Shown: piece after piece, positions 8,904 to 29,386 of the stretch
How the letters are laid out: the number at the start of each line of letters is the position of its first letter
Numbering within the stretch: position 1 is the stretch's first letter
Origin: Escherichia coli
Lineage (GTDB): Bacteria; Pseudomonadota; Gammaproteobacteria; Enterobacterales; Enterobacteriaceae
Reading direction: 5' to 3' (one strand)
DNA length: 64,000 bases
Assembly: GCF_046105845.1 (NCBI RefSeq)
Contig: NZ_CP151004.1
Program-made: the position numbers and the translations under genes
Notes under the pieces: generated by a model
What the model saw: only the letters and a program-made list of their open reading frames with translations
Told to the model about the DNA's origin: nothing
The model's database searches: none

Positions 8904-9569
8904 TTAACGCAGGCTTTGCGGCAGCAGTTCATCTACCAGTACATTCAGCCAGTGGTGTAGCCCCCACCAGACGCCCGCCAGTAGCAGCGCCAGTGTTACC
9001 AGCCAGAAAAACGGCGAATGCAGCAAAGGGTGCTGACGGGTGGATAACGGCACGTTCAGTACCGCCGTTTCCGGCAGCACGCCAAATGGCGCGACCTGCC
9101 CGTTGAGCGTCGAAATAAGCTGGTCGCGCTCCGGGGCCACCGGATCCTGATAACGCCCGCGAAATCCCAGCAGCAGGACACGGTGAAAGCAGGTCAGCAC
9201 AGCCTGTGCAGGTGCGGGCTCCTGCAACACCTGCTTCATCCGTTCGTACAGCAGCTCGCCTGCCTGCAGGGTGTTGAAGAAATGCGACTGGAGTGGATCC
9301 TTCATCCAGATGGCCTGACCGTCGTCCATGCCGCCACGGCTCAGGACCGTTTCGTCCAGCAGGGCGCACTGTGCGTAAGTTATGTGCTCCACGCTCTCCC
9401 GGCTGAACCCGGCATCTTTCAGGCGTTCGCGGACCCCTTCCACCTGCCGCTGGCAGTGGCGATACAGCTCCATACCGTGACGCACGGTGGTTCCCTGACG
9501 CAGTTCCACCACCGTCAGAAACGTGTCGCGCAGCAGCGCGTCGATATTGATATCCGTCTCTTTTTTCAT
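8904..9569 (-). CDS. tssL: T6SS membrane-complex protein TssL (DotU family)
   Basis: 221-aa ORF with a DotU-like cytoplasmic domain and a C-terminal transmembrane segment (FFWLVTLALLLAGVWWGL). Start overlaps the tssK stop by 4 bp. Confidence 0.85.
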   Translation of the reverse strand: MKKETDINIDALLRDTFLTVVELRQGTTVRHGMELYRHCQRQVEGVRERLKDAGFSRESVEHITYAQCALLDETVLSRGGMDDGQAIWMKDPLQSHFFNTLQAGELLYERMKQVLQEPAPAQAVLTCFHRVLLLGFRGRYQDPVAPERDQLISTLNGQVAPFGVLPETAVLNVPLSTRQHPLLHSPFFWLVTLALLLAGVWWGLHHWLNVLVDELLPQSLR

Positions 9570-10903
9570 GTGCGCAGCACCGCAAACAGTTCAGGTTTCA
9601 GGTCGCCCATGGTTCCCGGCGCATAAATCATGCAGCACCCGGACTCCAGCATCGATTTGGCCGCGTCACTGTGCATATCCAGCGCAAAATACTGGTTCTC
9701 CAGTCGCAGCGGCAGCGCCGCCGGAACTGAGGTCAGTGGCACCAGTGAAACACCGTTCAGCGCCACATTGATAAGCAGCGTGACGTCATCAGGCGCACCG
9801 ATTTTGCAGACCAGCGGTAGCTGGTGCAGTACCTGATGTGCCGGCAGAGAGGAACGAACGGACAGGTAAAAATCGGCCTCTTCCCGCAGGCGCGGATCGT
9901 GCAGGTCTGCTTTCCAGCGGTTGCCCGGCAGGGACGCCAGCTCCAGTGCGATCACCCGTGACGGCAGGCTGGCTTCCAGCAGTTCGCTGAGCAGGGAGAA
10001 CAGTGGCGGAAAGACGGTGGACGGCGATTCGTGGACATAGGGCGGAACGGCGCTGACGTTATGTTCAAGGGAAAACGTCAGCAGCGCTCCGGCAAGCCTC
10101 GCCAGCTCCCGCCAGACCAGTTCGGGATGAACTGCCGGGTAGCGCAGGAAATCTCTCAGTACCGGCTCAGCAGAATTCAGCGCGTTAAGCAGCCAGAACA
10201 GGGAGACATCGGCGATGGCGAAGTCCGCCATACGCTGGTTGCTTTCCCGGCGCATCGCCATCAGACGCTGACATTTGGCCCGTAGCTGCAACAGCAGCGT
10301 GTCCAGACGCTGTACCAGTCCGTCATGGGCGTTAAACGCCAGTAACGGTGGAATGTAATCGCCGTCCTGCGTCCAGTTGCCCTGAACATCCCGCACCAGA
10401 CGCGCCAGTGGGCAGGTGATGTAATCCTGATTGTTATCATGGACAAAGCGCAGGGACAGCGCATGACGCTCAACGGCCATATCTTCACTGTCACTGCCGT
10501 AGATATCCTGCACCTTTTGCCATTCCTGACGATAGCGTAGCGGTCTTTCAGTCTGCTCACCCTGACCGAGATTACCGCCGTTACCATGGGCAAGCGGCAG
10601 CGCCAGCAGAACAACCGCGCTGTCGTTCGTCAGCGCGTGCAGATCGCAGGCGAGAGGCAGAACATCGCTCACATCTGAATCGATCAGCGTGCCATCAGCA
10701 AAACGCAGGCGTACTGCCTGCGTTTTCAGCTTTCCGGACGTCAGGGCATCGCGGTCAAAGAGCACATTCGCGATCCCCCACGGATGACGAATACAAAGTT
10801 GCGCAATGCTGTCATTGCTGAACGCTTCCCAGCGGGCCTGCTGCTGAAACTGCTGAGAGGACAGGAATGTCCCCTCAGCCCACAGTGGTCGATGAATTTT
10901 CAT
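9566..10903 (-). CDS. tssK: T6SS baseplate protein TssK
   Basis: 445-aa ORF with a typical TssK N-terminus (MKIHRPLWAEGTFLSSQQFQQQ), positioned between tssC and tssL. Confidence 0.85.
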   Translation of the reverse strand: MKIHRPLWAEGTFLSSQQFQQQARWEAFSNDSIAQLCIRHPWGIANVLFDRDALTSGKLKTQAVRLRFADGTLIDSDVSDVLPLACDLHALTNDSAVVLLALPLAHGNGGNLGQGEQTERPLRYRQEWQKVQDIYGSDSEDMAVERHALSLRFVHDNNQDYITCPLARLVRDVQGNWTQDGDYIPPLLAFNAHDGLVQRLDTLLLQLRAKCQRLMAMRRESNQRMADFAIADVSLFWLLNALNSAEPVLRDFLRYPAVHPELVWRELARLAGALLTFSLEHNVSAVPPYVHESPSTVFPPLFSLLSELLEASLPSRVIALELASLPGNRWKADLHDPRLREEADFYLSVRSSLPAHQVLHQLPLVCKIGAPDDVTLLINVALNGVSLVPLTSVPAALPLRLENQYFALDMHSDAAKSMLESGCCMIYAPGTMGDLKPELFAVLRT

Positions 10904-10920
10904 ATCACACCACTTCCCGG

Positions 10921-12459
10921 TCAGGCTTTCGCTTTCGGCATCTGGGAAACCAGTGACAGGTTGATATCCATCCCTTCAATCTGGAAATGCGGCACGGCAA
11001 AGAGTCTGACGCGGAAGAAGCCCGGATTGTCCTCAATATCTTCCACGATAACCTTGCCGTCGCGCAGCGGGTGAGACGCCTGCAGTTCATCACCCGGATC
11101 GGTCATCTCCGTCACCAGTGTGCGGATCCAGGTGTTCAGTTCCAGTTCCAGTACGCGGCGGTCTTTGGTGGTACCGATATTCTCGCGCTGGATGATTTTC
11201 AGGTAATGCGCAATGCGGGACAGCAGGAAGATATAGGGTAAACGGGCGTTAATACGGCTGTTGGCAGTGGCATCAGCGGTATCATACAACGCCGGTTTCT
11301 GGGCAGAGTTTGCCGAGAAGAAGCAGGCGTAATCGCGATTCTTATAATAAGAGAGCGGAATAAAGCCAAGGTTGGCAAATTCAAATTCGCGGGTTTCCGG
11401 GATCATCACTTCGGACGGAATTTTGACCTGATTGCCGGTGCCGAGATCGTAAAGATGGATGGGCAGATCGGTCACTGCGCCACCTGCCTGTGGACCACGG
11501 ATCTGCACACACCAGCCATTATTCACAAAGCTCTTCACCATATTGGCGGCAAAAGCGAACGAGGCGTTTGTCCACAGGTACTTTTCGTGATCCGGACCTT
11601 TGACTTCTTCCACATAGTTAAAGCTGCGTACCGGCACCGTGTCCGGCCCGTACGGCAGACGCCCCAGTACGCGCGGCATCACTAATCCCACATAGCGACT
11701 GTCATCCGTATCGCGGAACGATTTCCATTTAATATATTCTGCGCGGTCAAAGTAGTTGCCGATATCTTTAATCGCGGCGACTTCTTCCATCGAATTTTTA
11801 AGGAAGAATTTCGGCCCGACAGAACCTATAAATGGCATATGGGAAGCGGCAGACACTCTGGAAATATTGCGCAGCAGGGCAATATCCTGCGGGCTGTTAT
11901 CAAATTCATAGCTGGAAATTAATGAGGCAACAGGTTCGCCACCCGGCGTATCGTACTCCTGAATGTATGTATGACGATATAAACCGCTCTGAATGATTTC
12001 CGGGGAGTCGTCGAAATCCTGACGCAGATGCTCTTTGCTGATATCCAGCAATTCAATTCTGACATTTTTGCGAAAATCAGTGCGCTGTACGACGAACCAT
12101 GTGCCGCGCCACAGCGACTCGACTTTCTGGAATTCAGGATGGTGCATTACCGCATCAAGCTGCTTACTGATTTTCTGATCCAAATCGTCGATATGAAAAT
12201 CCAGCAGGCTCTTGTCGAGCTTGACCACGTTCTCGCCTGATTTCGCCAGACAGGAAAGCAGAACGTGAATCGCCGCTGTCACGCGCTCATCGGGTGAGGC
12301 ATCCGCCAGTGTTTCGCTGTTTTGCCATAAATCTATTTCCTGAATGGAAGACACCGGGGTTAAATTAATTTTATCAAACAGGGACTGATAAACGCCGCCG
12401 GACTCAGTGGTGGTCAGTGTTGCAGTTTCAGAGGTGGCATGTTCTTGTTGTACAGACAT
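10921..12459 (-). CDS. tssC: T6SS contractile sheath large subunit TssC (VipB)
   Basis: ORF of 512-514 aa with TssC-like sequence. I place the start at the third Met (12459) because AAGGAA sits 6 nt upstream; the ORF track starts at 12465. Confidence 0.9.
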   Translation of the reverse strand: MSVQQEHATSETATLTTTESGGVYQSLFDKINLTPVSSIQEIDLWQNSETLADASPDERVTAAIHVLLSCLAKSGENVVKLDKSLLDFHIDDLDQKISKQLDAVMHHPEFQKVESLWRGTWFVVQRTDFRKNVRIELLDISKEHLRQDFDDSPEIIQSGLYRHTYIQEYDTPGGEPVASLISSYEFDNSPQDIALLRNISRVSAASHMPFIGSVGPKFFLKNSMEEVAAIKDIGNYFDRAEYIKWKSFRDTDDSRYVGLVMPRVLGRLPYGPDTVPVRSFNYVEEVKGPDHEKYLWTNASFAFAANMVKSFVNNGWCVQIRGPQAGGAVTDLPIHLYDLGTGNQVKIPSEVMIPETREFEFANLGFIPLSYYKNRDYACFFSANSAQKPALYDTADATANSRINARLPYIFLLSRIAHYLKIIQRENIGTTKDRRVLELELNTWIRTLVTEMTDPGDELQASHPLRDGKVIVEDIEDNPGFFRVRLFAVPHFQIEGMDINLSLVSQMPKAKA

Positions 12460-12517
12460 CAGCATTTCCTTTTCAGTGATCCTTTCTTCTCCGGTTTAAC
12501 CTGAATATCACTTCGGG

Positions 12518-13018
12518 TTAAACGTTCTCCTGCGGCGCAATTTTCGCCAGTTCATCACGCAGTTCTGAACTGAGCGTTGGGTCTTTCAGGATATTTTCCA
12601 GTTCACGGCGAAACGTTGCGTTATCCAGCAGATTGGATTTGAGGTCACGTAATAAATTGCGCATAGCGAGTAATACACGAAGCTGTGGGATATTTTTTGC
12701 TACCTGTTCGGGTTCAAAATCTTTCAGGCTTTTAAATTCAAGCGCGATATTTTGTTCATTACCGCTTCCGCTTAGTGTGTCTTCTACTGTTAAATTAACC
12801 GCAGGCGAAAACTCAGCCATGACACTGTTGAAGTTGTTTTTATTGATATCAATCTTGTCCCGTTCGGACAGCGGACGTTGCTCTTTTCCGTTACTGTAAT
12901 CGCCAACAGCAAGAAGCTTGAGGGGGAGTTCAACTTTCTTTTTAGCATTGCCTGTATGCAGGTCAAGCTTGATATTTACACGAGCGGCGGGAACTTCATT
13001 CTGGAAACTGTCGGCCAT
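12518..13018 (-). CDS. tssB: T6SS contractile sheath small subunit TssB (VipA)
   Basis: TssB-like sequence (ARVNIKLDLHTG...ELPLKLLAVGDY). I place the start at the internal Met (MADSFQ) preceded by GAGGAAAAGG; the ORF track extends to 13045, which remains possible. Confidence 0.85.
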   Translation of the reverse strand: MADSFQNEVPAARVNIKLDLHTGNAKKKVELPLKLLAVGDYSNGKEQRPLSERDKIDINKNNFNSVMAEFSPAVNLTVEDTLSGSGNEQNIALEFKSLKDFEPEQVAKNIPQLRVLLAMRNLLRDLKSNLLDNATFRRELENILKDPTLSSELRDELAKIAPQENV

Positions 13019-13045
13019 ATCCTTTTCCTCATCATCCACTTTCAT

Positions 13046-13657
13046 CAGGAGTGCGAGATAATCACGCGTGTGACTATCCCATAAGGATTATGACTATATA
13101 AAGATAAAAAACAAGAACAAATATAGAGACAGAAATATCATTTATAATTGCTGTGAATAATTATACGTCTATCTCGAAATTATATTATTTGAGAACATCA
13201 TCCCATTTTTAGGCGTTTTAGCTGTTAAGCAGACGGTTAAACCTATACATGTGTATACATGCATGAAAATACTGAAAAACAACAAGATCCACATCACAAA
13301 AATTTATTTTTCAGAATGACGGAATTCATGTTTTTTTCGCAAATTATTCACCATGCAAATATTTAATTTTTTTCATGCTTAATAAAATATGATGTTTACT
13401 CATATGCCAACTATGCTACCTGTTGACGCCACACACCAATACACAAAACAAATGCAACAATCACAAACCATAAAAATAAAATATGATTTAGCTATAGTTA
13501 TCAACAAAATAACATCACCACCATTTATAATTTTACTATTGATAAAAAATAGAAACTACGATAAATAATAAAGCATTACTTACCAATCATTCTTTTAAAT
13601 GATTCTGGAATGCAGTCTCCACTGCATAATTGGGCTGTGTTTTTTAAGGAGCAAGTA
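13046..13657. promoter_or_regulatory. 612-bp strongly AT-rich divergent intergenic region upstream of tssB (minus) and an unknown gene (plus); presumed T6SS operon promoter region
   Basis: Unusually long, AT-rich non-coding stretch between divergent genes. One GATC (13286-13289). A GATAATCAC element at 13066-13074 resembles half a Fur box. No promoter hexamers could be assigned with confidence. Confidence 0.5.
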
Positions 13658-14599
13658 ATGCATACCATTCCTTATTATAGCAATAACACCTCTATGCCTG
13701 TCTGGGTTACTGTTAGCGAAGCAACTGATATTATCAATAAGTATACTAACAGCCATATTAAAGATTGTGACTTATGGCGTTATGCACTTTATGGTCACTT
13801 ACCTCTTTCAATTTATTTCCAGTCACAAATAAAGCTTAGAAAAATTTGCCTGAGCGGCGATGAAATCATGCTGGATAACATCGAAGAAAGCATTATTGAG
13901 AAGATAGCTCAGTTAAGTGATACGTGCATATACAATGGGAAAAATAAAATAATAAAGACAGAAGGTGACTATATTTCCCCAGAGCATCATATTATTGATA
14001 CACCATTAATTGGTCATGAATATATTGTATTACAAAGATTACTTGCTCACTCATTAAAAATACCAAAACCTATTACAGGACAGTATAATTCTCATTATGG
14101 TGTTGTCGTCCGTGAAAATGGAATAATTTATCAGGTCTTCGAATCAACTACACTGGAAAACAGAATAACCCAGCGCCTTCGCCATCTTTCAATCCCCGTT
14201 GCAACATACTTTTACGAATCAACAAAATCCCAGGATCTCAAACAGGCAGGAACCCGGTATTTCCCGGTTTATCATTTTCCTGACGATGCCTGGTTCGTTA
14301 TCAAACGCACTGCTCTTGAGCAATTCATAAATACTTTTCTCCCTCCCACTCATAAAAATACCCCTAAAAATGGAACCCGCATTTCTACACCGCTATCACG
14401 ATTTCTCTGGCTAGCGTGTAAGCACAATCATGATATTAGCGCACTGATGGGGCACCCCTACAAACTCCTCTCCGTGTTCGAAGAATGGGCCCGCTCCGAC
14501 GGTATCACTGAACGACTAAATGGAGATACGCTGAAAACCGCACTGGAACGCGGTTCTCCGGTTTTAGCCTACCGTAACTCCGAATTAATGAAATCCTAA
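13658..14599 (+). CDS. hypothetical protein (313 aa), function unknown
   Basis: Long ORF. ATG at 13658 is preceded by AAGGAG at good spacing; the ORF track begins further upstream at 13610. I do not recognise a family. Transcribed divergently from the T6SS operon. Confidence 0.6.
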   Translation: MHTIPYYSNNTSMPVWVTVSEATDIINKYTNSHIKDCDLWRYALYGHLPLSIYFQSQIKLRKICLSGDEIMLDNIEESIIEKIAQLSDTCIYNGKNKIIKTEGDYISPEHHIIDTPLIGHEYIVLQRLLAHSLKIPKPITGQYNSHYGVVVRENGIIYQVFESTTLENRITQRLRHLSIPVATYFYESTKSQDLKQAGTRYFPVYHFPDDAWFVIKRTALEQFINTFLPPTHKNTPKNGTRISTPLSRFLWLACKHNHDISALMGHPYKLLSVFEEWARSDGITERLNGDTLKTALERGSPVLAYRNSELMKS

Positions 14600-14699
14600 C
14601 TTAGAGTCCAGAAATCCTTACTTAGAGGTCTGCTGCTTTCCTTCGGTAGGTCTGATGATGTTGAATTGACTAGCACATCATCAACTACCGGAGGATAAA

Positions 14700-14885
14700 A
14701 TGACGTCACAACGATTTCTGCGGCTGGCACAGGTTATGGATAAAACCGGACTGAAACGCTCACAGGTCTATGCTTATATGAAAACAGGGGATTTCCCAAA
14801 ATCCGTCAAAATTGGCCCGTCCAGCGTAGCATGGCTGGAATCGGAAATTGACGAATGGATCAATACAAAAATAAATAACCGCTAA
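14700..14885 (+). CDS. AlpA-family phage/island transcriptional regulator
   Basis: 61-aa ORF (MTSQRFLRLAQVMDKTGLKRSQVYAYMKTGDFPKSVKIGPSSVAWLESEIDEWI) matching the small AlpA/MerR-like HTH family. GGAGG SD. Confidence 0.8.
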   Translation: MTSQRFLRLAQVMDKTGLKRSQVYAYMKTGDFPKSVKIGPSSVAWLESEIDEWINTKINNR

Positions 14886-14924
14886 TGTAGTATTCTCATT
14901 ATTAGTTTGTTTGAGGTCATTAAT

Positions 14925-15719
14925 ATGAACGATGATCACGGTATTCTTATGCCTGTCGCACTAAATCAGCTACGGGCATTTGATTTAAATCCACGCCTTA
15001 CCAAAAATCCAGAATATGATGAAATTAAAGAATCGATTCGCAACCGCGGGCTGGATTATCCGCCACAAATAACACAACGTCCGGGAGAATCTTTTTATAT
15101 TATTGCCAATGGAGGTAATACCCGGCTGGCAATACTCAACGAGTTATGGCTGGAAACTCACGATAAAAAATACTGGAATATTGTCTGTCATTTCTGGAAG
15201 TGGCATACAGACTGGAGCATTGAAGAAGGTAATTTACACTGCCTGCTTGGTCATCTCGTAGAAAATGATAAACGCGGTTCACTGACATTTATTGAACGGG
15301 CATTAGGGGTTCAAAGTGCAATAAACCTGTATCAAAGTATCCGGGGAAGCTCACAAAGAGATCTGGTACAAATGCTCTGTCAGGCGGGATATCCAGTATC
15401 CACCACGAAACTAAGTATTATGTCCGCGACTATCACATTTCTTTTACCCTATATTCCGGAAGCACTTTACGGTGGTCTGTCGAGACGTATTATCGATAAA
15501 TTGCTGGCACTTCGTTCCAATACGCTAAAATTCTGGGACAACTTCTGCCAGACGTTGCCTCCCGAAAAGGAACAGCAACTCCCTCTATTTGACGATATTT
15601 TTGCTATGGCCCTGACTCCCTTTAATGAACCGATGACAGGTTTTTCACTGGAGCATATTCAGGATGAGCTGACAGGGATTATCAGCAAGACACTTAATGT
15701 GGACTCTGCCCAGCGATAA
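14925..15719 (+). CDS. ParB/sulfiredoxin-like N-terminal domain protein (putative)
   Basis: N-terminal region (LNQLRAFDLNPRLTKNPEYDEIKESIRNRGLDYPPQI...IIANGGNTRLAIL) resembles the ParB N-terminal domain pattern. Start taken at ATG 14925 (GAGG 8 nt upstream); the track ORF starts at 14907. Confidence 0.5.
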   Translation: MNDDHGILMPVALNQLRAFDLNPRLTKNPEYDEIKESIRNRGLDYPPQITQRPGESFYIIANGGNTRLAILNELWLETHDKKYWNIVCHFWKWHTDWSIEEGNLHCLLGHLVENDKRGSLTFIERALGVQSAINLYQSIRGSSQRDLVQMLCQAGYPVSTTKLSIMSATITFLLPYIPEALYGGLSRRIIDKLLALRSNTLKFWDNFCQTLPPEKEQQLPLFDDIFAMALTPFNEPMTGFSLEHIQDELTGIISKTLNVDSAQR

Positions 15720-15916
15720 CGGGATGGCCAGATTTGCGCCGGTGATATATTCAATGCCTCCGCAATCAACCGCTCACCTTTCGGCCAGTGGCTCCTGAGT
15801 GCATTTGCCAGCGTACCGGAGGCCAGCCCGGCTTTGCGGGAAACCGCTGCCAGCGACGTTCCCTGTTTTTTCAGTGCCGCGATAATATCTGCGGGGTGCC
15901 AGTCCTGCTGCATCAT
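15659..15916 (-). CDS. Ner/Nlp-family small DNA-binding protein
   Basis: Sequence from the internal Met (MMQQDWHPADIIAALKKQGTSLAAVSRKAGLASGTLANALRSHWPKGERLIAEALNISPAQIWPSRY) resembles Ner/Nlp (SfsB-like) regulators. ATGA overlap with the integrase stop; GGGAGGG SD. Confidence 0.7.
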   Translation of the reverse strand: MMQQDWHPADIIAALKKQGTSLAAVSRKAGLASGTLANALRSHWPKGERLIAEALNISPAQIWPSRYRWAESTLSVLLIIPVSSS

Positions 15917-17137
15917 ACTGCCCTCCCACAAACCAGCCGTTCGGACGGGATACCACATACACGCTGGCTCCACCACGCCATCACGTCGGTTCTCTGCTCA
16001 AGATAGGTCGAGCGGTTATAAGCGGCGCGCGTCTGATTAGTATCCGCATGAGCCAGTACAGCTTCTATCACATCAGGGGAAAATCCGGCCTCATTCAGCG
16101 TGGTGCTACCCAGCGCCCGGAAACCATGTGACACCAGCTCCCCGCAATACCCCATACGCCGTAGTGCCTTATTGACCGTTTCGCTATTCATTGGTTGCGA
16201 GGGCTTAACCCGACCCGGAAACAGGAACGGCGAGTGTCCACTTATCGGTTTAAGTTGCTCCAGTATCCACAGCATTTCATCAGTCAGGGGCACCAGATGC
16301 TCACGGCGTTTTTTCATACGCTCAGCCGGAATAGTCCATAGCTTTTTCTCCGTATCAATCTCACGCCACATGGTGCCTGACGCTTCTCCGGGGCGCACCA
16401 GCGTCAGCAACTGCCACTTAATCAGATAACGAGTCATCAGCGATAGATTGGTGGTTTCAATCCGCTGTACCAGCTCCGGCAGGCGTTCCGGGCGGATAGA
16501 CGCCATATGCTGTTTTTTCGGCTTCTCAAAGACCTTACCGATGGTCGAGGCTGGATTCGCATCAAGCAGGCCGGAATTGACAGCAAATACCATCACTTCG
16601 TTGATACGCTGGGTTAGACGACGCAGGGTTTCCAGCGCACCTCGTGCCCGGACCGGCTCAAGGGCGGCAATCAGAGTATGTGCTTTCAATTCAGCTACCG
16701 GCATCTGTCCGATTGACGGAAGAACATCCCGTTCCATCGAACGCCAGATATCATCTGCATGCACTTCTGAAATGCCACTGGTCTTTTTAATAGCAAACCA
16801 TCTTGTCGCCACATTGATAAACAGGCTGTCGATTGCTTTCTTTTCCTGTTCTGCGGCTTCCTGCTCCAGCTTTTTCGGATCTACACCCTGAGCCAGCAGA
16901 CCAAGATATTCATCATGTACTGCGGGCAGCAGCAAGAGTTACAGCAGGATAATAACCCAGCGTGATATTGGTACGGGCAGTGGAGTTTGGACGCTGGTAA
17001 CGAAAACGCCAGATTTTCTTCCCGGAAGTACGAACAGAAAGCGTCAGACCATGCCCGTCAGGCAGGTCGTAATCTTTATCGGCGGGTTTTGCTTTTTGTA
17101 CTGCGGCAGCAGTCAGCAGGCGGCGGGTAATGGTCAT
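15913..17137 (-). pseudogene. int: P4-type tyrosine integrase interrupted by a frameshift (N-terminal 74-aa ORF plus 340-aa C-terminal ORF in another frame)
   Basis: ORF 16913-17137 encodes a typical P4-integrase N-terminus (AVQKAKPADKDYDLPDGHGLTL...GYYPAVTLAAAR). ORF 15913-16935 encodes the rest, including the catalytic region (HGFRALGSTTL...LAHADTNQT...Y). The frames overlap at 16913-16935 next to a GGG run (16924-16926). Could also be a homopolymer sequencing error. Confidence 0.75.
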
Positions 17138-17398: not shown

Positions 17399-17475
17399 TG
17401 GCGGAACGGACGGGACTCGAACCCGCGACCCCCTGCGTGACAGGCAGGTATTCTAACCGACTGAACTACCGCTCC
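17399..17475 (-). tRNA. aspV: tRNA-Asp (GUC)
   Basis: Reverse complement matches E. coli tRNA-Asp (GGAGCGGTAGTTCAGTCGGTTAGAATACCTGCCTGTCACGCAGGGGGTCGCGGGTTCGAGTCCCGTCCGTTCCGCCA). Position next to dnaQ identifies it as aspV. Confidence 0.97.
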
Positions 17476-25620: not shown

Positions 25621-25697
25621 TGGCGGAACGGACGGGACTCGAACCCGCGACCCCCTGCGTGACAGGCAGGTATTCTAACCGACTGAACTACCGCTCC
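25621..25697 (-). tRNA. aspU: tRNA-Asp (GUC), distal tRNA of rrnH
   Basis: Identical in sequence to the aspV copy. Lies 3' of the 5S rRNA. Confidence 0.97.
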
Positions 25698-29006: not shown

Positions 29007-29200
29007 TCACAACCCGAAGATGTTTCTTTCGACTCATCATCGTGTTGCGAAAATTTGAGAGACTCACGAACAACTTTCGTTGTTCAGTGTTTCAATTTTC
29101 AGCTTGATCCAGATTTTTAAAGAGCAAAACTTCGCAGTGAACCTTTGCAGGTACACTCTGAAGTATTTTTTATTTAATCACTACAGATGATGGTGGAGCT

Positions 29201-29276
29201 ATGCGGGATCGAACCGCAGACCTCCTGCGTGCAAAGCAGGCGCTCTCCCAGCTGAGCTATAGCCCCATAACATGTA
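29201..29276 (-). tRNA. alaV: tRNA-Ala (UGC), 16S-23S spacer
   Basis: Reverse complement matches GGGGCTATAGCTCAGCTGGGAGAGCGCCTGCTTTGCACGCAGGAGGTCTGCGGTTCGATCCCGCATAGCTCCACCA. Confidence 0.97.
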
Positions 29277-29309
29277 GTTAAAACCTCTTCAAATTTGCCG
29301 TGCAAATTT

Positions 29310-29386
<77 letters not shown>

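What the first reader, a model, noticed from the sequence alone, without database searches (positions are those of the whole stretch)
14590..14690. Two near-identical 20-bp direct repeats at the stop of the unknown gene, followed by an inverted repeat, upstream of alpA
GAAATCCTAACTTAGAGTCC (14590-14609) and GAAATCCTTACTTAGAGGTC (14611-14630) are spaced 21 bp apart, which is two helical turns. They are followed by GATGATGT...ACATCATC (around 14657-14685). This could be a repeated binding site or a transcript-processing element controlling alpA.
Basis: seen in the sequence. Interest (0 to 1): 0.3.

Follow-up and report, generated by a model that had tools for sequence, protein, structure and literature searches.

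The report
Paired operator sites upstream of alpA
The two 20-bp repeats are this strain's rearranged copy of a conserved pair of small palindromic sites, most likely protein-binding, that sit in front of the alpA control operon of a family of integrative conjugative elements, here in a decayed remnant beside tRNA-Asp.

Summary
GAAATCCTWACTTAGAG occurs at 14590 and 14611 (16/17, 21 bp apart). It is the only such close repeat in the window, and 0 of 200 simulations produced one.

About 40 related Enterobacterales loci carry the module: unannotated ~308-aa gene, 100-150 nt spacer, then alpA-(ParB/BisD-like)-DUF2857(BisC-like)-TraR. All have two 13-bp quasi-palindromes exactly 21 bp apart at this position. 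Their sequence changes in concert between elements (CCGTAnTACGG, CCTTAnTAAGG, CCGCGTTGCGG, CCTAAGTAAGG).

Everywhere else the two sites are mutually inverted. Only this lineage has them direct, because a 47-nt patch (14564-14610) replaced site 1 with a near-copy of site 2.

My best reading is a two-dimer operator for the upstream gene's product, which has a predicted Xis/MerR-like winged helix. It would control the alpA promoter as BisR controls PalpA in ICEclc. Profile comparison finds no homology between that protein and BisR. AlpA is an unlikely binder.

The GATGATGT/ACATCATC repeat is the inner stem of a -28 kcal/mol leader hairpin that buries the alpA Shine-Dalgarno. The anti-SD pairing is moderately conserved and covariation is not significant.

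No binding or transcript data exist. The element here is a remnant with a truncated ParB and a frameshifted integrase. Interest is modest.

The parts
13658..14599 (+). Unannotated gene ('unk', about 313 aa from the MHTIPYY start; the mechanical ORF begins at 13610). It is the proposed DNA-binding input regulator of the alpA operon.
14564..14610 (+). Lineage-specific 47-nt replacement patch. It removed the ancestral stop codon and converted site 1.
   Evidence: Window and L063 (same E. coli remnant type) are about 97% identical on both sides but diverge across this patch. L063, L066 and L057 all keep the ancestral TAA and site 1 as CCTAAGTAAGGA.
14594..14606 (+). Site 1 (TCCTAACTTAGAG), the core of the first direct repeat (14590-14609).
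   Evidence: It aligns without gaps to site 1 of 38 related loci. Here it matches site 2 at 12/13 in direct orientation but only 7/13 in inverted orientation.
14615..14627 (+). Site 2 (TCCTTACTTAGAG), the core of the second direct repeat (14611-14630).
   Evidence: It is identical or nearly identical to site 2 of L063, L058, L057 and L066. Spacing to site 1 is 21 bp in every locus.
14636..14641 (+). Conserved CTTTCC box just 3' of site 2.
   Evidence: CTTT is nearly invariant in the 32-locus alignment. It is also present as GTCTTT(C/T) after the palindromes in ICEclc-type loci. It resembles the GTTTCC core of the motif shared by ICEclc transfer-competence promoters, including PalpA (PMC9286271 S3 Fig). 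Any functional link is inference.
14639..14695 (+). Leader hairpin. The outer anti-SD stem is 14639-14649 with 14685-14695.
   Evidence: MFE is -28 kcal/mol, z = -5.3. P(SD unpaired) is 0.001 against 0.32 in shuffles. The outer helix is 87.5% paired in 7 relatives. The inner helix is 64% paired with no compensatory change, and covariation does not exceed shuffles.
14690..14695 (+). Shine-Dalgarno sequence GGAGGA of alpA.
   Evidence: GGAG is invariant in all aligned loci, 5-8 nt before the start codon.
14700..14885 (+). alpA (61 aa).
   Evidence: Pfam PF05930, E = 9e-26. PHROG annotation is excisionase/transcriptional regulator.
14925..15719 (+). ParB-like (BisD-like) gene, C-terminally truncated at 264 aa.
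   Evidence: TIGR03764 ICE_PFGI_1_parB, E = 7e-81. Intact relatives are 414-491 aa and are followed by DUF2857 and TraR.

Best explanation
The two repeats are the two halves of a bipartite operator in the control region of the alpA operon of an integrative conjugative element (ICE).

What is shown:
- Each half is a 13-bp quasi-palindrome.
- The centres of the two halves are exactly 21 bp (two helical turns) apart.

What is inferred:
- Each half would be contacted by a dimer, and the spacing would put the two dimers on one face of the DNA.
- The binding protein is the product of the gene that ends inside repeat 1. This is an unannotated ~308-aa protein with a predicted N-terminal Xis/MerR-type winged helix.
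- Occupancy switches on a weak, activator-dependent promoter between site 2 and alpA. That promoter drives alpA-bisD(ParB-like)-bisC(DUF2857)-traR.
- This would be functionally equivalent to BisR acting on PalpA in ICEclc. It uses a protein for which no sequence homology to BisR is detectable.

A conserved CTTTCC box just downstream may be the entry point for BisDC-type positive feedback. This is speculative.

The transcript leader then folds into a hairpin that buries the alpA Shine-Dalgarno, giving a second, translational brake. The structure is predicted and only moderately conserved.

The element itself is a remnant: ParB is truncated, the conjugation genes are gone and the integrase is frameshifted. 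The operator may therefore no longer matter to the cell.
For: Module and site conservation:
- The unk-spacer-alpA module is conserved in 46 genome loci and further contigs.
- An ungapped alignment of 38 loci shows two 13-mers 21 bp apart in every one, while the spacer sequence between them and the downstream leader vary freely.

Evidence that the sites are protein-binding:
- Each 13-mer is self-complementary at 73-76% of positions, against 25% expected by chance.
- The two sites of one element resemble each other more than sites of other elements do: 10.9/13 against 9.6 (sd 0.2), exceeded in 0 of 10000 permutations.
- There are four sequence classes. Both sites switch class together.

Evidence on which protein binds:
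- In a complete E. coli ICE the motif occurs as a pair only in this spacer.
- AlpA's predicted recognition helix is identical between class B (window) and class C (L007). In contrast, the predicted recognition helix of unk differs by class.

Parallel with ICEclc:
- Genuine ICEclc-type loci (bisR-alpA-parA-shi-bisD-bisC; L067-L070) have the same architecture in the bisR-alpA spacer. They carry two element-specific 14-bp palindromes 21 bp apart, followed by GTCTTT.
- BisR is experimentally a strong activator of PalpA, a promoter that is silent without it (PMC7423338).
- No sigma-70-like promoter is detectable in the window's spacer, which is consistent with dependence on an activator.
Against: - There are no binding, footprint or transcript-start data for this family. 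The promoter position is unknown, so activation versus repression is inferred only by analogy.
- The analogy partner BisR is not detectably homologous to unk (hhalign probability below 1%) and has a different predicted architecture.
- The covariation of the unk helix with site class is confounded by phylogeny, since it rests on few independent events.
- In relatives the two sites are complementary, including at the centre base (28/32), and would fold into a stable RNA hairpin (-18 kcal/mol, z about -4 to -5). An RNA-level role is therefore not excluded.
- DUF2857/BisC-like or ParB-like proteins are not formally excluded as binders.
- The window's element is decayed, so the direct repeat may be a neutral scar.
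Confidence: 0.55

Rival explanations
1. The site pair works as RNA, or as single-stranded DNA. In the family it forms a 13-bp stem with an 8-nt loop at the 3' end of the unk transcript. This would act as a terminator, insulator or stabiliser between unk and alpA. In this window the hairpin has been destroyed by the 47-nt patch.
For: - As RNA the pair folds at -17.8 kcal/mol (z = -4.9) in L063 and -18.3 (z = -3.9) in L016.
- Complementarity between the arms is maintained across four sequence classes, including the centre base in 28/32 and the outer variable pair in 30/32.
- In the ICEclc-type locus L068 the equivalent pair plus TGTCTTTT is called terminator-like.
- In ICEclc the bisR transcript covers a single gene (PMC7423338).
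Against: - A hairpin does not require each arm to be a palindrome in its own right, yet 73-76% of arm positions are self-complementary.
- One stem position is an A.G mismatch in 9 of 32 unique pairs and is Watson-Crick in only 21/32.
- No U-tract follows the stem in the unk family, and no terminator is called in L016 or the window.
- Loop length never varies, whereas the leader downstream is full of indels.
- The window version cannot fold (-5.1 kcal/mol, z = +0.6), yet it keeps two near-identical sites at the same 21-bp spacing.
Confidence: 0.17
2. The sites are bound by AlpA itself, either for autorepression of its promoter (as AlpA represses PalpA in ICEclc) or as a Xis-type or Q-like loading site.
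For: - AlpA expression represses PalpA in ICEclc (PMC7423338).
- AlpA-family proteins are wHTH DNA binders and excisionases.
- The sites lie directly upstream of alpA.
Against: - AlpA of the window (sites CCTAACTTAGAG / CCTTACTTAGAG) and AlpA of L007 (sites CCGCGTTGCGG) share an identical KRSQVYAYMKTGDFPKSVKIGP segment. They differ at only 6 of 61 residues, all outside the predicted helix-wing.
- Across all four site classes the helix varies only at conservative positions that do not track class.
Confidence: 0.1
3. The sites are loading or recognition sites for the BisDC-like pair: parS/bisS-like sites for the ParB-like protein, or a BisC (DUF2857) box for positive feedback.
For: - ParB-family proteins bind short palindromes. 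ICEclc BisD binds an 11-bp inverted repeat called bisS, and BisDC activates PalpA (PMC12409273, PMC7423338).
- The ParB-like gene lies 2 genes downstream in the window.
Against: - Most loci that keep the site pair have no ParB-like gene between alpA and DUF2857.
- In a complete ICE the motif is found as a pair only here, whereas BisC occupies about 11 promoters and bisS lies inside the inrR and ssb genes in ICEclc.
- DUF2857 proteins are 84-85% identical between elements with different site classes.
Confidence: 0.08
4. In this particular window the direct repeat has no current function. It is a mutational scar, from a local conversion or duplication, in a decaying island remnant.
For: - The direct form is confined to this lineage: the window plus 2 of 5426 complete E. 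coli genomes. It arose through a 47-nt patch.
- ParB-like is truncated and the DUF2857, TraR and T4SS genes are absent.
- The integrase is split into 340-aa and 74-aa ORFs, against an intact 408 aa in L063.
Against: - unk and alpA remain intact ORFs here and in the 92%-identical L063 lineage.
- The leader hairpin is stronger here than in relatives.
- This rival concerns present-day function only. It is compatible with the operator origin.
Confidence: 0.1

Closest known systems
BisR - PalpA node of ICEclc (Pseudomonas; Carraro et al. 2020, PMC7423338)
   Same: - Gene order matches: a regulator without Pfam domains, a ~117-nt spacer, then alpA ... ParB-like BisD and DUF2857 BisC.
- The promoter is silent unless activated.
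- I find two element-specific palindromes 21 bp apart, followed by a (G)TCTTT/CTTTCC box, in both spacer types.
   Different: - The upstream protein is not detectably homologous to BisR (hhalign probability below 1%).
- Predicted folds differ. The unk model is alpha/beta with an N-terminal wHTH. The BisR model is mostly helical with a 43-residue coiled coil.
- There are no parA-shi genes between alpA and bisD.
- BisR's own binding site is not reported in the ICEclc papers I read. A search for palindrome, inverted repeat or EMSA found none in PMC7423338.
Classical bipartite operators bound by two dimers on one helical face (for example phage repressor or activator operators). This comparison is from general knowledge and was not tested here.
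   Same: Two similar palindromic sites lie at an integral number of helical turns, with fixed spacing and a variable spacer sequence.
   Different: The protein, its oligomeric state and its effect on transcription are unknown. The two sites are also mirror images of each other, which gives the whole 34-bp unit dyad symmetry.
AlpA-binding element of the P. aeruginosa alpBCDE promoter / Xis-type direct-repeat sites. This comparison is from general knowledge.
   Same: An AlpA-family gene sits next to short repeated DNA sites. Xis, BldC and MerR-type wHTH domains, which are the best structural matches of unk, often bind repeats.
   Different: AlpA does not track site specificity here. The sites precede alpA rather than an AlpA target operon. 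There is no evidence for antitermination.
bisS / parS sites of ParB-like BisD (PMC12409273)
   Same: These are also short palindromes on an ICE of the same superfamily that encodes a TIGR03764 ParB.
   Different: bisS is a 23-bp element with 11-bp arms, located inside the inrR and ssb genes rather than in front of alpA. The sites here persist in loci that lack the adjacent ParB-like gene.
SD-sequestering leader hairpins (translational attenuators). This comparison is from general knowledge.
   Same: An anti-SD stretch (UCCUUC or UCUCC) pairs with GGAGGA 5-10 nt before the start codon. The SD is predicted to be paired in 32 of 37 loci.
   Different: There is no known trigger and no Rfam family. 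Covariation is not significant. It is also unknown whether the promoter's transcript includes the anti-SD arm.

Membership tests
ICEclc-type alpA control region (PalpA with its upstream regulator gene) | alpA is followed by a ParB-like BisD gene (TIGR03764) and a DUF2857 BisC gene in one direction. | tested here: met
   The window has alpA followed by a truncated TIGR03764 ParB. Intact relatives L057-L059 have alpA-ParB(479-491 aa)-DUF2857-TraR.
ICEclc-type alpA control region (PalpA with its upstream regulator gene) | The upstream regulator belongs to the BisR protein family. | tested here: not met
   Profile-profile hhalign of 23-117 unk sequences against 18-116 BisR sequences gives probability below 1%. 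The predicted architectures differ.
ICEclc-type alpA control region (PalpA with its upstream regulator gene) | parA-shi genes lie between alpA and bisD. | tested here: not met
   They are absent in the window and in L057-L060. They are present in L054, L067 and L068.
ICEclc-type alpA control region (PalpA with its upstream regulator gene) | The promoter is activated by the upstream regulator and by BisDC, and repressed by AlpA. | not testable with these tools
   This needs reporter assays. It is known only for ICEclc (PMC7423338).
Protein-binding bipartite operator | Each site has internal dyad symmetry. | tested here: met
   73-76% of positions are self-complementary over 32 unique site pairs, against 25% by chance. 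In the window itself the symmetry is weaker: 4 of 6 and 3 of 6 position pairs.
Protein-binding bipartite operator | Spacing is fixed and in helical phase, while the spacer sequence is variable. | tested here: met
   The spacing is 21 bp in all 38 loci with no gap. The spacer sequence is unconserved. The spacing is also 21 bp in ICEclc-type loci.
Protein-binding bipartite operator | The sites co-vary with a DNA-binding protein encoded nearby. | tested here: inconclusive
   The predicted unk recognition helix differs by site class and the AlpA helix does not. However, there are few independent events and they are confounded by phylogeny.
Protein-binding bipartite operator | Protein binding is demonstrated. 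| not testable with these tools
   This needs EMSA, footprinting or ChIP.
Intrinsic terminator of the upstream gene | A G+C-rich stem-loop is immediately followed by a U-tract. | tested here: not met
   No terminator-like site is found in the window (13000-16200) or in the L016 spacer. The window's site pair does not fold. The feature is met only in the ICEclc-type locus L068.
Structured RNA family (Rfam) | The region matches a curated covariance model. | tested here: not met
   There is no relevant Rfam 15 hit at E up to 5 in 13000-16500.
Conserved SD-sequestering leader | Base pairs are supported by compensatory changes. | tested here: inconclusive
   The anti-SD helix is 87.5% paired, and 2 of its 8 pairs show double changes. 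None of the measures exceeds shuffles (for example 86 of 500 shuffles reach the observed pairing). The inner stem is 64% paired with none.

The most novel reading that the evidence does not exclude
The unannotated ~308-aa proteins are a new family of ICE 'input' regulators. They would be a non-homologous replacement of BisR, each with its own co-evolving two-palindrome operator in front of alpA. The four or more site classes would then form an orthogonality code that lets related ICEs in one cell be switched on independently. The same 2 x palindrome / 21-bp / CTTTCC layout in ICEclc-type spacers would be the still-unmapped BisR operator plus the BisDC box. This gives a directly testable map of the bistability switch's cis-elements.
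Probability: 0.35. Interest if true: 0.55.

Novelty: new variant of a known kind. Interest (0 to 1): 0.35.

Why it matters
ICEs of the PFGI-1/ICEclc superfamily spread resistance and virulence genes. Their transfer is decided at the alpA-bisDC node. For the Enterobacterales branch, which is found in Salmonella, E. coli, Citrobacter, Klebsiella, Pectobacterium, Dickeya, Yersinia and others, neither the input regulator nor its DNA target has been described in the literature I could search.

The comparative result gives three things:
- a concrete 34-bp candidate operator;
- a candidate protein;
- natural specificity variants that can be swapped in reporter assays.

It also suggests where to look for the unmapped BisR site in ICEclc.

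For this particular window the biological weight is small, because the element is a decayed remnant next to the aspV type VI secretion island.

Tried and rejected
- Further copies of the repeat in the window. None were found beyond chance, whether with the 17-mer at 3 mismatches or a degenerate 13-mer at 2 mismatches.
- Rfam. There was no relevant hit.
- Sigma-70 promoter and terminator scans of the spacer. Nothing was found. I tried to assign -35 and -10 elements by eye from the 32-locus alignment, using the conserved CTTT and TGnT about 17-18 nt apart. I could not find a consistent hexamer, so no promoter is claimed.
- att-site direct repeats between the tRNA-Asp and the region left of unk. 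None of at least 14 nt were found.
- Getting BisR. The bisS pattern in viral contigs gave 0 hits. A BisD-like protein in viral contigs gave 0. Pseudomonas loci L054-L056 lacked bisR. BisR was finally obtained from plasmid records L067-L070.
- Homology of unk to BisR. It was rejected by hhalign on full-length, N-terminal and C-terminal profiles. Two short collinear resemblances (FVIR..LEK with LTVRHVDLKRW, and GIT[DE]R) are not significant.
- Foldseek of the unk model against PDB found nothing. The afdb50 library was unavailable.
- The long-range nested pairings 14557-14569 with 14738-14750 and 14609-14619 with 14710-14720 give z = -4.9 for a 211-nt fold. One arm lies in the lineage-specific patch, and the pairings are absent in L057. 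I treat them as coincidental.
- The idea that the sites are integrase arm-type or Xis sites of the att region. They lie about 1 kb inside the element end and recur at a fixed distance from alpA, not from the element end.
Full report
**Setting.** The finding lies in a small island remnant at tRNA-Asp (aspV, 17399-17475, minus strand). The neighbours are dnaQ and rnhA on one side and the type VI secretion genes tssB and tssC on the other. Reading from the T6SS side, the remnant contains:
- an unannotated ORF (13610/13658-14599, plus strand);
- alpA (14700-14885; Pfam Phage_AlpA, E = 9e-26);
- a ParB-like gene (14925-15719; NCBIfam TIGR03764 'ICE_PFGI_1_parB', E = 7e-81);
- a Ner/SfsB-like HTH_35 gene on the opposite strand;
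- a tyrosine integrase split into 340-aa and 74-aa ORFs.

Only 2 of 5426 complete E. coli genomes carry this exact spacer at 99% identity.

**Observation.** The repeats are as described. GAAATCCTAACTTAGAG lies at 14590 and GAAATCCTTACTTAGAG at 14611, matching at 16/17 with 21 bp start to start. The first overlaps the TAA stop of the upstream ORF. There is no third copy in the window. It is the only repeat of at least 16/17 at distance 17-40 in 64 kb, and none appeared in 200 Markov simulations.

The inverted repeat is TGATGATGT (14653-14661) with ACATCATCA (14675-14683). A 9-bp inverted repeat is common on its own: the window has 23 against about 5 simulated. Here it is nested in an 11-bp outer stem, TCCTTCGGTAG (14639-14649) with CTACCGGAGGA (14685-14695). 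The outer stem's 3' arm contains the alpA Shine-Dalgarno.

**What the relatives show.** The upstream protein has 278 homologues of about 300-308 aa across Enterobacterales. All are 'hypothetical' and none has a Pfam domain. A genome scan returned 46 loci. In most of these alpA starts 100-150 nt after the homologue's stop. Intact relatives of the window's element come from Salmonella and Citrobacter (L057-L059). They read unk(308 aa)-alpA(61)-ParB-like(479-491)-DUF2857-TraR/DksA-AcaB. L057 sits next to tssB/tssC, as in the window. The window's ParB-like gene (264 aa) is therefore truncated, and the rest of the ICE is gone.

Aligning the spacers of 32, then 38, loci gave an ungapped block containing two 13-mers exactly 21 bp apart in every locus. 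The 13-mers fall into classes:

| Class | Core sequence | Loci |
|---|---|---|
| A | CCGTAtTAAGG / CCGTAaTACGG | majority |
| D | CCTTAnTAAGG | L004, L005, L014, L037 |
| C | CCGCGTTGCGG / CCGCAACGCGG | L006, L007, L059, L060 |
| B | CCTAAGTAAGG / CCTTACTTAGG | L057, L058, L063, L066 |

Both sites of an element belong to the same class. Same-locus similarity is 10.9/13, against 9.6 (sd 0.2) for shuffled partners, exceeded in 0 of 10000 permutations. Each 13-mer is itself self-complementary at 73-76% of positions. The 8-nt spacer between the sites is not conserved in sequence but never changes length. The leader downstream, by contrast, is full of indels.

**The window is the odd one out.** In 36 of 38 loci the two sites match better, or equally well, as an inverted pair (9-13/13). 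Only the window and its 99% twin L001 match as a direct pair (12/13 direct, 7/13 inverted).

L063 is an E. coli contig with the same remnant organisation, an intact 408-aa integrase and a 92%-identical unk. It has the ancestral inverted pair ATCCTAAGTAAGGAT ... GTCCTTACTTAGAGG. Window and L063 are about 97% identical on both sides of a 47-nt patch (14564-14610). That patch removed the ancestral stop codon, giving unk the tail VLAYRNSELMKS in place of AATPASS. It also replaced the right half of site 1, and its left flank, with a near-copy of site 2.

**Who binds.**

*AlpA is unlikely.* The window (class B) and L007 (class C) have identical KRSQVYAYMKTGDFPKSVKIGP segments. They differ at 6 of 61 residues, all outside the predicted helix-wing.

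*The ParB-like gene is unlikely.* It is missing from between alpA and DUF2857 in most loci that keep the sites.

*A regulon-type factor such as BisC is unlikely.* In a complete E. coli ICE (NZ_AP021893: unk-alpA-DUF2857-TraR-VirB T4SS-T4CP-MobC) the motif occurs as a pair only in this spacer.

**Comparison with ICEclc.** In ICEclc the order is bisR-PalpA-alpA-parA-shi-bisD-bisC. BisR is 251 aa with no Pfam domain and strongly activates PalpA. PalpA is silent without it, BisDC feeds back positively and AlpA represses (PMC7423338). BisD is a ParB-like CTP clamp that loads at bisS sites, and BisC marks about 11 promoters (PMC12409273).

I recovered true ICEclc-type loci from plasmid records (L067-L070), with a 248-253-aa gene immediately 5' of alpA. 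That gene's family matches the published description of BisR. Profile-profile comparison of unk with this family gives probability below 1% in every variant. The BisR model is mostly helical with a long coiled coil, unlike the unk model. So unk is not a BisR-family member by any test available here.

The bisR-alpA spacers nevertheless show the same layout. There are two element-specific 14-bp palindromes (ATTGCATATGCAAT; ACCGCATTTGCGGT; ACCGCAGTTGCGGT and ACCGCTGTTGCGCT) with centres 21 bp apart, followed by GTCTTT(C/T). The eLife ICEclc paper does not mention palindromes, inverted repeats or EMSA at PalpA, and the two later ICEclc papers, which I only searched by keyword, showed nothing on a BisR site.

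The conserved CTTTCC just 3' of site 2 (window 14636-14641) resembles the GTTTCC core of the motif shared by ICEclc transfer-competence promoters, including PalpA (PMC9286271 S3 Fig). I record this as a lead, not a result.

**The RNA alternative.** Because the two sites are mirror images, relatives can fold them into a 13-bp hairpin (L063 -17.8 kcal/mol, z = -4.9; L016 -18.3, z = -3.9). Complementarity extends to the centre base (28/32) and to the outer variable pair (30/32). In L068 the pair plus TGTCTTTT scores as terminator-like.

Five points argue against an RNA-only role:
- the arms' own palindromy is unexplained by a hairpin;
- one stem position is A.G in 9 of 32 pairs;
- there is no U-tract in the unk family;
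- the loop length is invariant;
- the window keeps two near-identical sites at 21 bp although they cannot pair (-5.1 kcal/mol, z = +0.6).

I rate this rival at about 0.17. A dual role is possible.

**The downstream inverted repeat.** The full hairpin 14639-14695 folds at -28 kcal/mol (z = -5.3) and pairs all of GGAGGA. Across 37 loci the SD is predicted unpaired with mean probability 0.065, against 0.148 in composition-matched shuffles. The effect is strong only in the window's subclade (0.001-0.01 against 0.22-0.31).

On a 7-sequence alignment the anti-SD helix is 87.5% paired and two of its pairs show double changes. SD sequestration is therefore a plausible, moderately conserved property. 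The perfect 9-bp inverted repeat is largely specific to this lineage. Whether the operon's own transcript includes the anti-SD arm is unknown, because the start site is unknown.

**Verdict.** The feature is a new variant of a known kind: an operator in front of an ICE master-regulator operon, functionally parallel to BisR/PalpA, with an unrelated and undescribed protein family. In this window it sits in a decayed remnant and has been rearranged. Everything about binding and about the direction of regulation is inference.

Noticed in passing
L067:4534-4651, L068:4500-4619, L069:2256-2382, L070:1997-2115: ICEclc-type bisR-alpA spacers carry two element-specific 14-bp palindromes with centres 21 bp apart, followed by GTCTTT(C/T). 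Examples are ATTGCATATGCAAT and ACCGCATTTGCGGT. This is a candidate BisR operator. The eLife ICEclc paper describes no such site; I only keyword-searched the other two.
   Followed up: partly
window 14636-14641 and alignment A2 columns ~71-76: A nearly invariant CTTT(C) box lies 3' of site 2. It resembles the GTTTCC core of the MEME motif of BisDC-dependent ICEclc promoters (PMC9286271 S3 Fig). A second invariant TGnT lies 17-18 nt further on, but no consistent -35/-10 could be assigned.
   Followed up: partly
window 15913-17137 (minus strand): The P4/CP4-type integrase next to tRNA-Asp is split into 340-aa and 74-aa ORFs, probably by a frameshift. The same gene is intact (408 aa) in the related E. 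coli contig L063.
   Followed up: partly
window 14925-15976: The ParB-like gene stops at 264 aa (intact relatives are 414-491 aa). Its end overlaps a convergent Ner/SfsB-like HTH_35 gene (15659-15976, minus strand). The same truncated arrangement is conserved in L063 and L064, so the deletion that made the remnant is older than the 8% divergence of unk.
   Followed up: partly
window 10921-13045; L057:1-2384; L058, L060, L066: ICEs of this family sit directly beside the aspV type VI secretion island (tssB/tssC, or Hcp/VasL/YafT) in E. coli and in Salmonella. I did not find the element's left att boundary.
   Followed up: no
window 14557-14569 with 14738-14750; 14609-14619 with 14710-14720: Further nested complementary stretches link the 3' end of unk and the site spacer with alpA codons. 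They give a 211-nt fold with z = -4.9. One arm lies in the lineage-specific patch and the pairings are absent in L057, so they are probably coincidental.
   Followed up: partly
L034:3072-3250, L036:783-960, L041:626-800, L048:230-400: Four genera (Symbiopectobacterium, Pantoea, Serratia, Citrobacter) share a nearly identical remnant. It consists of an unk fragment plus the site pair, followed by TTAGTTTTTTTGA and no alpA. Unrelated chromosomal-type genes lie downstream.
   Followed up: partly
L052 (Burkholderia, 9001-9954): Distant relatives of unk (E about 1e-9, about 317 aa) occur in a prophage- or satellite-like island with an integrase, Exc and a primase-helicase. The family therefore extends beyond ICEs.
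   Followed up: no
window 14083-14098 and 14887-14902: A 16-nt direct repeat is present: GTATAATTCTCATTAT inside unk and GTAGTATTCTCATTAT in the alpA-parB spacer (14/16 identical). It may be chance.
   Followed up: no
window 25621-25697, 29191-29385: There is a second tRNA-Asp, plus tRNA-Ala and tRNA-Ile genes of a ribosomal RNA operon downstream of the island.
   Followed up: no
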